64,000 bases of DNA from Escherichia coli. GTDB lineage: Bacteria > Pseudomonadota > Gammaproteobacteria > Enterobacterales > Enterobacteriaceae. Made by a program: the position numbers. Positions 37,001 to 40,000 of this stretch are shown piece by piece (positions within the stretch are counted from its first letter, which is position 1; every line of letters starts with the position of its first letter). Location of the stretch: assembly GCF_003019035.1 (NCBI RefSeq), contig NZ_CP027447.1, one strand, 5' to 3'.

Positions 37001-40000
37001 GGTTTGATTTTCCTGCTCTTTATTATCGGGTTGATTGGTTATCACCCGGATACGCGTATCTCGCTGTATGTCGGTTTCGCGTGGATTGTTGTGCTGTTGA
37101 TTGGCTGGATGTTTAAGCGCCGCCACGATCGTCAGCTGGCTGAAAACCACTAATCCTTGCGTTCTGTAAGCCGGTTCAGGAGGAAATCCTGATCCGGCTA
37201 TTCCGAAAGTTATCCGCCCCCGTCCTCCTCCCCCAAATATCCTTCAGATGATGAGTGATCCTGCATTAGGCTATGGCAAGGTGAGCAGATTTTCATCACA
37301 GGGGAATTATGATGTTAAATGCATGGCACCTGCCGGTGCCCCCATTTGTTAAACAAAGCAAAGATCAACTGCTCATTACGCTGTGGCTGACGGGCGAAGA
37401 CCCACCGCAGCGCATTATGCTGCGTACAGAACACGACAACGAAGAAACGTCAGTAGCGATGCATAAGCAGCGCAGTCAGCCGCAGCCTGGCGTTACCGCA
37501 TGGCGGGCGGCGATCGATCTCTCCAGCGGGCAACCTCGGCGGCGTTATAGTTTCAAATTACTGTGGCACGATCGCCAGCGTTGGTTTACACCGCAGGGCT
37601 TCAGCCGAATGCCGCCAGCACGACTGGAGCAGTTTGCTGTCGATGTCCCGGATATCGGCCCACAATGGGCTGCGGATCAGATTTTTTATCAGATCTTCCC
37701 TGATCGTTTCGCCCGTAGTCTTCCTCGTGAAGCTGAACAGGATCATGTTTATTACCATCACGCAGCCGGACAAGAGATCATATTGCGTGACTGGGATGAA
37801 CCGGTCACGGCGCAGGCGGGCGGATCAACGTTCTATGGCGGCGATCTGGACGGGATAAGCGAAAAACTGCCGTATCTGAAAAAACTTGGCGTGACGGCGC
37901 TGTATCTCAATCCGGTGTTTAAAGCTCCCAGCGTACATAAATACGATACAGAGGATTATCGCCACGTCGATCCGCAGTTTGGCGGCGACGGAGCGTTGCT
38001 GCGTTTGCGACACCATACGCAGCAGCTGGGAATGCGGCTGGTGCTGGATGGCGTGTTTAACCACAGTGGCGATTCCCATGCCTGGTTTGACAGGCACAAT
38101 CGTGGCACGGGTGGTGCTTGTCACAACCCCGAATCGCCCTGGCGCGACTGGTACTCGTTTAGTGACGATGGCACGGCGCTCGACTGGCTGGGCTATGCCA
38201 GCTTGCCGAAACTGGATTATCAGTCGGAAAGTCTGGTGAATGAAATTTATCGCGGGGAAGACAGTATTGTCCGCCACTGGCTGAAAGCGCCGTGGAATAT
38301 GGACGGCTGGCGGCTGGATGTGGTGCATATGCTGGGGGAAGCGGGTGGGGCGCGCAATAATTTGCAGCACGTTGCCGGGATCACCGAAGCGGCGAAAGAA
38401 ACCCAGCCGGAAGCGTATATCGTTGGAGAGCATTTTGGCGATGCACGGCAATGGTTACAGGCCGATGTGGAAGATGCCGCCATGAACTATCGTGGCTTCA
38501 CATTCCCGTTGTGGGGATTTCTTGCCAATACCGACATCTCTTATGATCCGCAGCAAATTGACGCCCAAACCTGTATGGCCTGGATGGATAATTGCCGCGC
38601 CGGACTTTCTCATCAACAGCAACTGCGTATGTTTAATCAGCTCGATAGCCACGATACTGCGCGATTTAAAACGCTGCTCGGTCGGGATATTGCGCGCCTG
38701 CCGCTGGCGGTGGTCTGGTTGTTCACCTGGCCTGGTGTACCGTGCATTTATTACGGTGATGAAGTGGGACTGGATGGTAAAAACGATCCGTTTTGCCGTA
38801 AACCGTTCCCCTGGCAGGTGGAAAAGCAGGATACGGCGTTATTCGCGCTGTACCAGCGAATGATTGCGCTGCGTAAGAAAAGTCAGGCGCTGCGTCGTGG
38901 CGGCTGTCAGGTGCTGTATGCGGAAGATAACGTGGTGGTATTTGGCCGCGTGCTGAATCAGCAGCGTGTACTGGTGGCAATCAACCGTGGAGAAGCCTGT
39001 GAAGTGGTGCTACCCGCGTCACCGTTGCTTAATGTTGCGCAATGGCAACGCAAAGAAGGCCATGGGCAACTGACAGACGGGATTCTGGCTTTGCCTGCCA
39101 TTTCGGCTACGGTGTGGATCAACTAAAGCATCTGTTTTATTTATTACGTCGTAGTCACCAGCCCTGACACTACGCAGCGCAAAAAAGCTGCTCAATGTCA
39201 GGGCTGAGTTTGTTAAATATTTGTCCCGTTCGATATGAGCGATTTTTGGTATTCTTTGCCCATGAGGTTATGTACAACATGCTCCAGGATAACCCTGTAG
39301 TGGAGCAAAGATATGACAATTTCAAATTCGAATTTATTAAAACCGTTTATTACTGGTACTGAGTTGCCACCTTTTAAAGAGGATGTTTTTTCTAAAACAG
39401 AAGAACAATTTAAAAAAAGCCCCCATGGCAAATTGCTTTTCATTTCCGGAAATGAAAATTTAGTAAACATTTCAGCGGAAAAAATCGATGAAATAAAAAA
39501 TAGCAAAGATTTCTTTTCAAACATTGTAAATATAATAATTTTACTCATTAAGCATCCTGATAAAATTCTGCCCATTCTTCATGGTTGTCCTGCAGAGTCC
39601 ATCGAACTCATTAAGAATGCGAAACGAACGGGGCAATGGTCATATGAGATGACTGATAAGAACGGGCAGAATATTGAAGTGTCCTATATTTTCACTGATA
39701 CCATAGATGATAAATCTGATGGAAAATTATGCTTAAAAATCTGTAACTCTTGCAACCAAAATGATTCTAGTACACATGAATATAAAATAGATCATCAACA
39801 GTTGAAAAATCACATAAGGCAACTTGAGGAGTGGGCCCTTCTTGAAAAGTTTTATGATAACAACGCTTATTATTCTAAACATACAAAACAATTAGAGAAG
39901 AAAATTGCCGATGCGGGGTTTATAACAGGGAAGGTTAATGCCGATAACTTTAATGTAAAAGAGTTTAAAGACGATATAGCCTCGATGCTTTGTGAACAGC

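What the first reader, a model, noticed from the sequence alone, without database searches (positions are those of the whole stretch)
39159..39206. Nested hairpin at the left junction of the islet
Thirty-two bp after the malZ stop there is an 11-bp perfect inverted repeat (CAGCCCTGACA ... TGTCAGGGCTG) whose 27-nt loop holds a second 5-bp hairpin (GCAGC-GCAAAAAA-GCTGC). If malZ and acpH are contiguous in K-12, this structure belongs to the inserted DNA. It may act as the malZ terminator in this strain, insulate the islet gene from malZ read-through, or mark an end of whatever element delivered the islet.
Basis: seen in the sequence. Interest (0 to 1): 0.4.

Follow-up and report, generated by a model that had tools for sequence, protein, structure and literature searches.

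The report
Terminator-like hairpin opening an E. coli islet
A strong stem-loop just after the malZ gene is real and arrived with a 1.7-kb strain-variable insertion found in about a fifth of E. coli genomes. It most likely ends or caps the malZ transcript, is not the end of a mobile element, and is an ordinary kind of feature.

Summary
The hairpin at 39159-39206 is real. RNA MFE is -31.7 kcal/mol, z -5.6.

It belongs to the inserted DNA. In 1126 of 5426 complete E. coli genomes it occurs once, always with the islet ORF. The other genomes, and four other Escherichia species, have malZ and acpH stops 4 bp apart with no hairpin.

The best reading is an intrinsic-terminator-like structure for malZ, 32 nt past the stop and followed by a U-rich tail. 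That would shield the islet ORF and acpH from malZ read-through. The tail is only borderline, the stem shows no covariation, and no 3'-end data could be read, so this is inferred.

The "element end" idea is not supported. There is no partner repeat at the right junction, one copy per genome, none on plasmids, phages or viral contigs, and no Rfam match. Metagenome copies all lie in the same malZ-islet-acpH context.

The islet ORF (ECs_0454) is a fast-evolving E. coli-only orphan. Interest is low.

The parts
37309..39126 (+). malZ (maltodextrin glucosidase) CDS; stop codon TAA at 39124-39126
   Evidence: ORF list; RefSeq annotation of the identical locus in strain SCU-301
39127..40802 (.). Islet: 1676 bp between the malZ and acpH stop codons, replacing the 4-bp spacer of empty-site genomes; G+C 30-43% against about 55% in the flanks
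   Evidence: Empty sites; occupied alleles; composition; other Escherichia species are empty
39127..39158 (+). 32-nt A/U-rich spacer between the malZ stop and the hairpin
   Evidence: two substitution sites and one single-T indel among 11 alleles
39159..39169 (+). Outer stem, 5' arm CAGCCCTGACA
   Evidence: invariant in 11 alleles; one genome (19KM1831) has an uncompensated C>A at arm position 10
39170..39195 (+). 26-nt interior: 4x4 internal loop (CTAC / TCAA), inner 5-bp stem GCAGC (39174-39178) / GCTGC (39187-39191), apical loop GCAAAAAA (39179-39186)
   Evidence: The apical loop is the only part that commonly varies: the C is present or absent and the A-run is 5-7 long
39196..39206 (+). 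Outer stem, 3' arm TGTCAGGGCTG
   Evidence: invariant in all alleles examined
39207..39224 (+). U-rich tail AGTTTGTTAAATATTTGT (majority allele AATTTGTT...)
   Evidence: Tail score -2.48, or -3.76 if the AC/GU extension of the stem is counted, against -4.91 for the classic terminator at 35724-35751 in the same window
39227..39251 (+). Second, weak hairpin CGTTCGATATGAGCG followed by ATTTTTGGTA, terminator-like by the pattern scan
   Evidence: The stem loses a pair in the majority allele, CGATCG.... Folds weakly within 39207-39262, -8.3 kcal/mol for the whole stretch
39267..39317 (+). Predicted stem-loop that pairs the Shine-Dalgarno GGAG (39302-39305) and the AUG (39313) of the islet ORF; core GCUCCA 39281-39286 / UGGAGC 39302-39307
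   Evidence: -15.9 kcal/mol, z -2.4, 5 of 200 shuffles as good; the core pairs are invariant in 11 alleles
39313..40782 (+). Islet ORF, 489 aa, annotated 'hypothetical protein' (ECs_0454 in O157:H7 Sakai); E. coli/Shigella-only orphan with a 12-bp tandem repeat at about 40143-40274
   Evidence: No Pfam, NCBIfam or PADLOC family. Only one full-length cluster among 1.84 billion representatives. Alleles of 461-501 aa. dN/dS 0.5-1.7
40783..40802 (.). Right junction spacer TGACGCCGGAGCTTGAAGTT; no hairpin and no repeat of the left end
40803..41384 (-). acpH (ACP phosphodiesterase), convergent with malZ and the ORF. Its last codon and stop are CTC TGA here, against TTA/TTG TAA in empty sites

Best explanation
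The stem-loop is an intrinsic-terminator-like RNA hairpin that came in with the AT-rich malZ-acpH islet (or evolved inside it).

When malZ is transcribed, the inner 5-bp hairpin and then the 11-bp G+C-rich outer stem fold in the nascent RNA 32 nt past the stop codon. The U-rich tail (A[G/A]UUUGUUAAAUAUUUGU) favours release of the transcript about 7-10 nt after the stem. Failing that, the hairpin leaves a 3' end protected from exonucleases.

The effect is to give malZ a defined 3' end. It would limit maltose-induced read-through into the orphan ORF and, 1.7 kb further on, into antisense acpH. In empty-site strains such as K-12 the two genes are 4 bp apart and are reported to be transcribed into each other as a convergent excludon.

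Shown: the structure, its strength, its position and orientation, its strict linkage to the islet, and its absence from empty sites. Inferred: that termination or 3'-end formation actually happens there, and how efficiently.
For: - The hairpin is very stable on the malZ strand: -31.7 kcal/mol, z -5.6. It is kept in the MFE of longer contexts and in the consensus fold of 11 alleles.
- It lies 32 nt after the malZ stop, in the sense orientation, and is followed by 5 U in the next 8 nt. The minus strand has no U-tract after the hairpin, tail score -2.04.
- Both stems are invariant in 11 alleles whose 186-nt spacer carries 9 substitution sites, and common variation is confined to the apical loop.
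- It is G+C-rich (about 56%) within a 30-43% G+C islet.
- Relatives that have a gene between malZ and acpH carry a canonical terminator directly after malZ, so a terminator at this position is the usual arrangement when malZ has a downstream neighbour.
- In K-12, which has no hairpin, malZ-acpH is listed as a convergent excludon, meaning the transcripts overlap (PMC12288877).
- It is strictly linked to the islet: 1126 genomes have both, none has one without the other.
Against: - The U-tract is weak. It starts 2 nt after the 11-bp stem. The tail score of -2.48 just misses the -2.5 limit that I recall for TransTermHP. It reaches -3.76 only with an AC/GU extension that the majority allele (A instead of G at 39208) lacks.
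- The pattern scan did not call it, because its loop limit is 3-8 nt.
- At 48 nt with an internal loop, the hairpin is longer than typical E. coli terminators.
- There is no covariation: every pair is invariant, and the one stem variant found is uncompensated. The absence of stem substitutions is not statistically significant (roughly P 0.15 given 9 variable sites in 154 other spacer nt).
- No sigma-70-like promoter was found between the hairpin and the ORF start. An efficient terminator would therefore leave the ORF without an obvious source of transcription.
- No experimental 3'-end data could be read here.
Confidence: 0.5

Rival explanations
1. Passenger relic with no present role. The hairpin would be the leftover terminator or palindrome of whatever lay upstream of the ORF in the unknown donor, carried in with the islet. 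It would persist only because the islet is young relative to the mutation rate.
For: There is no covariation, and the lack of stem substitutions is not significant. An uncompensated stem mutation is tolerated in one genome. The ORF itself is under weak or no purifying selection, dN/dS 0.5-1.7. The U-tract is sub-optimal.
Against: A -30 kcal/mol hairpin directly behind an inducible gene will fold in the transcript whether or not it is selected, so some effect on the malZ 3' end is hard to avoid. The islet is not young: ORF dS between alleles reaches 0.12, and the flanks of occupied alleles differ by up to 4%. Despite that, both stems stayed identical in the alleles sampled.
Confidence: 0.25
2. 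An mRNA 3'-end stabiliser or processing site rather than a terminator. Transcription would end further downstream (by Rho, or at the small hairpin plus T5 at 39227-39251), and exonucleases would trim back to the big hairpin. That would protect malZ mRNA, as REP hairpins do in the malE-malF operon (established knowledge).
For: The stem is very stable and long, more like a nuclease barrier than a minimal terminator. The U-tract is weak. A second terminator-like site lies 20 nt downstream.
Against: Nothing distinguishes this from termination with the tools available. The second hairpin is weak and degraded in the majority allele.
Confidence: 0.12
3. The end of a mobile element or a recombination site: a sub-terminal hairpin of an IS200/IS605-like element, an attC-like cassette site, or a MITE terminal repeat that delivered the islet.
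For: It lies close to the left junction (32 nt). The layout of a left-end hairpin followed by an SD-sequestering stem-loop recalls IS200 (from memory).
Against: - There is no second copy or partner at the right end or anywhere in the window.
- It occurs once per genome, only at this locus, in 1126 genomes.
- It is absent from phages and viral contigs, and the only two 'plasmid' hits are 4.9-Mb records, i.e. chromosomes mislabelled as plasmids.
- All 31 E. coli-like metagenome copies are in the malZ-islet-acpH context.
- The ORF matches no transposase, integrase or TnpB family.
- There are no target-site duplications at the junctions.
- There are no RYYYAAC/GTTRRRY core sites at the base of the stem, and the stem has no extrahelical bases (direct reading).
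Confidence: 0.04
4. The functional strand is the minus strand. Antisense or acpH read-through RNA would form a near-perfect 19-bp helix, for example an RNase III site or the 3' structure of an antisense RNA against the ORF 5' region.
For: The minus-strand RNA folds better (-37.5 kcal/mol, z -7.9) because the internal loop closes with U.G, U-A and G.U pairs. Two promoter-like sites lie on the minus strand inside the ORF 5' part.
Against: No U-tract follows on the minus strand. The asymmetry rests on only two wobble positions and could be chance. There is no evidence of minus-strand transcription here.
Confidence: 0.04

Closest known systems
Rho-independent (intrinsic) transcription terminators of E. 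coli
   Same: A G+C-rich stem-loop shortly after a stop codon, in the sense orientation, followed by a U-rich stretch. The window's own classic example is at 35724-35751.
   Different: The stem-loop is much longer: 48 nt, with 11 + 5 bp, a 4x4 internal loop and an 8-nt apical loop. The U-tract is interrupted and starts 2 nt after the stem, scoring -2.5 to -3.8 against -4.9. There is no A-tract upstream, so it is one-directional. Function is untested.
REP/BIME palindromes that stabilise upstream mRNA (for example malE-malF)
   Same: A stable extragenic hairpin at the 3' side of a mal-regulon gene that could block 3'-5' exonucleases.
   Different: It is single-copy and locus-specific, against hundreds of copies per genome for REP. 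It has no REP-like sequence.
IS200 left end (terminator-like hairpin plus RBS-sequestering stem-loop)
   Same: The same order of parts: a junction-proximal strong hairpin that would block incoming transcription, then a stem-loop pairing the SD and AUG of the downstream ORF.
   Different: The ORF is not a TnpA or TnpB transposase. There is no right-end hairpin, only one copy per genome, and no sign of mobility. The resemblance is recalled from memory and is functional only.
Convergent excludon malZ-acpH of E. coli MG1655
   Same: The same two genes. The hairpin sits exactly where, in K-12, the two transcripts run into each other (PMC12288877).
   Different: In islet-bearing strains the genes are 1.7 kb apart with a strong hairpin after malZ, so the overlap is probably reduced or moved onto the orphan ORF. 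This was not measured.
Integron attC sites
   Same: An imperfect palindrome next to a promoter-less single ORF of unknown function.
   Different: The hairpin lies 5' of the ORF and 32 nt from the junction. It has no R''/R' core sites and no extrahelical bases. There is no integrase and no array.

Membership tests
Intrinsic (Rho-independent) terminator | Stable G+C-rich stem-loop in the transcript | tested here: met
   -31.7 kcal/mol, z -5.6; 7 of 11 outer pairs and 4 of 5 inner pairs are G-C
Intrinsic (Rho-independent) terminator | U-tract immediately 3' of the stem | tested here: inconclusive
   The tail is AGUUUGUUAAAUAUU. Its score is -2.48, or -3.76 with the stem extension present only in the minority G allele, against -4.91 for the classic terminator at 35724. 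It was not called by the pattern scan, whose loop limit is 3-8 nt.
Intrinsic (Rho-independent) terminator | Lies downstream of a gene end on the same strand | tested here: met
   32 nt after the malZ TAA, on the plus strand
Intrinsic (Rho-independent) terminator | RNA 3' ends map to the U-tract, and termination occurs in vitro without Rho | not testable with these tools
   Term-seq exists for O157:H7 Sakai (PMC7547250), but no table is held
REP/BIME | Many dispersed copies per genome with the REP consensus | tested here: not met
   Exactly one place per genome in 1126 genomes and none in the rest; no other copy in the window
IS200/IS605-type element | TnpA (HUH) and/or TnpB gene, with similar sub-terminal hairpins at both ends | tested here: not met
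   No Pfam, NCBIfam or PADLOC family above threshold for the ORF; no second hairpin
MITE / IS with terminal inverted repeats | Terminal inverted repeats at both junctions plus a target-site duplication; multiple copies | tested here: not met
   No inverted or direct repeat pairs the two ends. The junctions show no duplication. It is single copy.
Integron gene cassette (attC) | attC at the 3' end of the cassette with R''(RYYYAAC)/R'(GTTRRRY) cores and extrahelical bases | tested here: not met
   Direct reading: the arms are CAGCCCTGACA / TGTCAGGGCTG and pair perfectly. The hairpin is 5' of the ORF and 32 nt from the junction. A GTTAAAT lies downstream but has no complementary partner upstream.
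Any curated RNA family (Rfam 15) | Covariance-model score at or above the gathering threshold | tested here: not met
   Best hits score 16-19 bits against thresholds of 85-110, with E above 1, and are eukaryotic miRNA/snoRNA models
Horizontally acquired or strain-variable islet (membership of the hairpin in it) | Present only where the islet is present; absent from empty sites and from sister species | tested here: met
   1126 genomes against about 4300; 4-bp spacer; E. albertii and 3 other Escherichia species are empty

The most novel reading that the evidence does not exclude
The hairpin could be a leaky or conditional terminator (or processing site) through which a fast-evolving, E. coli-only orphan gene is expressed solely by read-through from the MalT-controlled malZ promoter. 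No promoter is recognisable between the hairpin and the ORF, and the ORF's SD and AUG are predicted to be sequestered. The islet would then have plugged an orphan gene into the maltose regulon and, at the same time, dismantled the ancestral malZ-acpH excludon.
Probability: 0.1. Interest if true: 0.4.

Novelty: new member of a known kind. Interest (0 to 1): 0.15.

Why it matters
The practical value is modest. The hairpin gives malZ a probable defined 3' end in about 21% of E. coli genomes, including O157:H7. K-12-type strains have none there, and the two convergent genes are reported to be transcribed into each other.

This makes the locus a natural pair of alleles for asking how an insertion between convergent genes rewires transcriptional interference. 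It also bears on how, or whether, an orphan gene with no visible promoter gets expressed.

It does not reveal a new kind of element or mechanism.

Tried and rejected
- **Rfam scan of 38900-41000 at E up to 10:** only chance hits to eukaryotic miRNA/snoRNA models.
- **Partner repeat at the right junction:** none found. The only near-junction repeat is an 8-bp GTGACGCC shared by the ORF stop region and acpH, probably chance.
- **Mobile-element origin:** islet DNA is absent from phages and viral contigs, and the two 'plasmid' hits are 4.9-Mb records, i.e. mislabelled chromosomes.
- **Metagenome scan with the arms pattern:** 52 contigs. The 31 E. coli-like ones are all in the malZ-islet-acpH context. 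The other 21 share only the 11-mer arms and have no similarity to this region.
- **Genome-contig scan with the ORF protein:** no relative in the representative genomes of 100,044 species.
- **ORF function:** no Pfam, NCBIfam or PADLOC family and no PDB relative. The exhaustive HMMER search found one E. coli cluster, fragments, and one weak PKD-repeat-like hit. The AlphaFold model had pLDDT 41, too poor for a fold search, so none was run.
- **Covariation test:** all pairs are invariant. Rare variants fetched from the 90-97% identity tail showed one uncompensated stem change. The 30-nt blast queries could not separate stem from loop variation, because gapped alignments absorb the loop indels.
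- **Literature:** no paper mentions ECs0454 or Z0502. The Term-seq paper on Sakai has no supplement held. The Sakai small-gene paper's tables do not cover this spot.
- **Chance resemblances considered and dropped:** the lambda boxB 5' half (GCCCUGA) and the in-frame 26-codon extension after the malZ stop.
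Full report
**Where we are.** The window is Escherichia coli chromosome. It carries malZ (37309-39126, +), a 1676-bp low-G+C stretch (39127-40802) holding one 489-aa ORF (39313-40782, +), then acpH (40803-41384, -) and queA. An identical locus in strain SCU-301 is annotated malZ / hypothetical protein / acpH. In O157:H7 Sakai the ORF is ECs_0454.

**The observation.**
- It is correct apart from one count.
- CAGCCCTGACA (39159-39169) and TGTCAGGGCTG (39196-39206) are exact reverse complements, starting 32 nt after the malZ stop.
- The interior is 26 nt, not 27. It contains GCAGC / GCAAAAAA / GCTGC, flanked by CTAC and TCAA.
- The repeat finder reports the whole as one hairpin with 20-nt arms, 85% complementary, 8 nt apart. 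The 'nested' hairpin is therefore a single long stem-loop with a 4x4 internal loop.
- As RNA, 39150-39215 folds to -31.7 kcal/mol against -15.7 +/- 2.8 for shuffles (z -5.6, 0 of 200). As DNA it gives -17.3 kcal/mol (z -4.6).
- The structure survives in longer contexts.
- Perfect inverted repeats of at least 11 bp with short loops occur at 8 places in the window, against 0.72 hits expected in first-order Markov simulations.

**Does it belong to the insertion?** Yes.
- A 2.2-kb query across the locus matches 5424 of 5426 complete E. coli genomes. Only 1126 cover it fully. The others span about 529 bp, meaning malZ and acpH directly abut.
- In DH5a, an O103:H2 strain and strain S2, the two stop codons are 4 bp apart and there is no hairpin.
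- The 186-nt malZ-ORF spacer is found in 1126 genomes, once each and always here. The one extra match is the HS-02 assembly, where the islet is replaced by A/T junk, an assembly artefact.
- An AcpH-based scan of species-representative genomes shows the same 4-bp empty junction in E. albertii and three other Escherichia species. The empty state is therefore ancestral and the islet derived.
- The islet is not recent. ORF alleles differ by dS up to 0.12, and the flanks of occupied alleles differ by up to 4%, interleaved with empty alleles in a flank tree.
- One junction detail is unexplained. In all occupied alleles acpH ends CTC TGA. In all empty sites it ends TTA/TTG TAA. The protein end is the same, but 3 of 6 bases differ.

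**Is it an element end?** The evidence says no.
- No direct or inverted repeat links the left end to 40783-40802, and the 11-mer occurs only in the two arms.
- The junctions carry no target duplication.
- The hairpin is single-copy.
- The islet is absent from phage records and viral contigs. Its two 'plasmid' hits are 4.9-Mb records, i.e. mislabelled chromosomes.
- A scan of metagenome contigs for the two arms found 52 contigs. The 31 with the E. coli interior all align to malZ-islet-acpH. The other 21 are unrelated hairpins sharing the 11-mer by chance.
- The ORF matches no transposase, integrase or defence family.
- Rfam has nothing.
- attC, IS200/IS605, MITE and REP memberships each fail a defining feature (see the membership table).

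**What it most likely does.**
- On the malZ strand the hairpin is followed by A[G/A]UUUGUUAAAUAUUUGU. On the other strand no U-tract follows.
- That geometry is that of an intrinsic terminator for malZ.
- The tail is only borderline. By the TransTermHP-style tail score (formula recalled from memory, computed) it is -2.48. It is -3.76 if two extra pairs across a bulge are counted, but those pairs exist only in the minority allele with G at 39208. The textbook terminator at 35724-35751 in this window scores -4.91.
- The pattern scan did not call the big hairpin, because its loop limit is 8 nt. It flagged a small hairpin plus T5 at 39227-39251, which is weak and degraded in most alleles.
- In genera that have a gene between malZ and acpH (Salmonella arizonae, Leclercia, Citrobacter, Enterobacter), a canonical terminator sits directly behind malZ.
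- In K-12, which has neither a spacer nor a hairpin, malZ-acpH is listed among convergent excludons, meaning overlapping transcripts (PMC12288877).
- I therefore read the hairpin as the structure that gives malZ a 3' end in islet-bearing strains, either by termination or as an exonuclease barrier. It would thereby limit read-through into the ORF and antisense acpH. Confidence is about 0.5.

**What weakens this reading.**
- All 16 pairs are invariant in 11 alleles, so there is no covariation.
- With 9 substitution sites in the other 154 spacer nt, zero in 32 stem nt is not significant.
- One genome carries an uncompensated C>A in the left arm.
- Common variation is confined to the apical loop, as C presence or absence and an A-run of 5-7. 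This is consistent with the structure but does not prove it.
- The minus-strand RNA would fold even better (-37.5 kcal/mol, z -7.9) because two C.A mismatches become G.U pairs. With only two positions involved, this may be chance.
- No sigma-70-like promoter is visible between the hairpin and the ORF.
- The ORF's SD and AUG are predicted to be paired in a -15.9 kcal/mol stem-loop (z -2.4).
- So either the ORF is largely silent, or it depends on read-through. That is the basis of the 'novel case'.

**The cargo.**
- The ORF is an orphan. An exhaustive HMMER search of 1.84 billion representatives returns one full-length cluster (E. coli), fragments of it, and a marginal PKD-repeat-like match to residues 100-158.
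- All named homologues are from E. coli, Shigella or Escherichia sp..
- A 12-bp tandem repeat (EKIA units, about 40143-40274) produces alleles of 461-501 aa.
- Pairwise dN/dS is 0.5-1.7, yet the frame is always open.
- AlphaFold gives pLDDT 41, so no fold search was attempted.

**Verdict.** This is a real, strong, islet-borne hairpin of an ordinary kind. Its function as malZ terminator or insulator is plausible but unproven, and the mobile-element reading is rejected. Public Term-seq data for O157:H7 Sakai (PMC7547250) could settle the matter. There the hairpin is at NC_002695.2 486348-486395.

Noticed in passing
window 39313-40782 (repeat about 40143-40274): The islet ORF (ECs_0454) is an E. 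coli/Shigella-only orphan. A 12-bp tandem repeat (EKIA units) varies in copy number, giving alleles of 461-501 aa. dN/dS is 0.5-1.7 but the frame is always intact. There is a weak PKD-like stretch at aa 100-158, and the AlphaFold model is poor (pLDDT 41).
   Followed up: partly
window 39267-39317: A predicted stem-loop pairs the ORF's Shine-Dalgarno (GGAG, 39302-39305) and its AUG (-15.9 kcal/mol, z -2.4). Its core pairs are invariant in 11 alleles. No sigma-70-like promoter was found between the big hairpin and the ATG.
   Followed up: partly
window 40803-40808 against empty sites (L001-L003, L016-L019): acpH ends CTC TGA in all occupied alleles but TTA/TTG TAA in all empty sites, including 4 other Escherichia species. 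The protein end (Leu-stop) is the same, yet 3 of 6 bases differ. This suggests the right breakpoint lies inside the last codons, or that the islet was imported with diverged flanks.
   Followed up: partly
window 39150-39215, minus strand: The reverse-complement RNA folds more stably (-37.5 kcal/mol, z -7.9) than the plus strand, because the internal loop closes with G.U pairs. No U-tract follows on that strand.
   Followed up: partly
L106 5988-6123, also L108, L110, L131, L136 (equivalent to window 41385-41396): Some E. coli contigs carry a roughly 125-bp ERIC/IRU-like palindromic element between the acpH start and queA. The window lacks it.
   Followed up: partly
L005 (E. coli HS-02, NZ_CP172818.1 421623-422734): The islet position is filled by about 1.1 kb of A/T homopolymer-like junk, with a truncated copy of the left arm and an extended acpH call. 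This is almost certainly an assembly or polishing artefact in a deposited 'complete' genome.
   Followed up: partly
L023, L037, L039, L043, L054 (Salmonella arizonae, Leclercia, Citrobacter, Enterobacter): In these genera a 200-aa minus-strand gene lies between malZ and acpH, with a canonical terminator hairpin directly after malZ. The malZ-acpH junction is therefore a variable spot across Enterobacteriaceae.
   Followed up: no
window 60760-60807; also 61429-61466, 61484-61524, 3211-3259, 9365-9394, 59211-59238: There are other long perfect inverted repeats in the window. The one at 60760-60807 has 18-bp perfect arms and a 12-nt loop. None was examined further.
   Followed up: no
L153 (E. coli DCM188-6): This genome lacks malZ altogether, and proY is followed directly by acpH.
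   Followed up: no
window 39127-39207: The frame of malZ stays open for 26 codons past its TAA, through the hairpin, to a TGA at 39205-39207. This is probably chance (about 0.3 probability for 26 codons).
   Followed up: no
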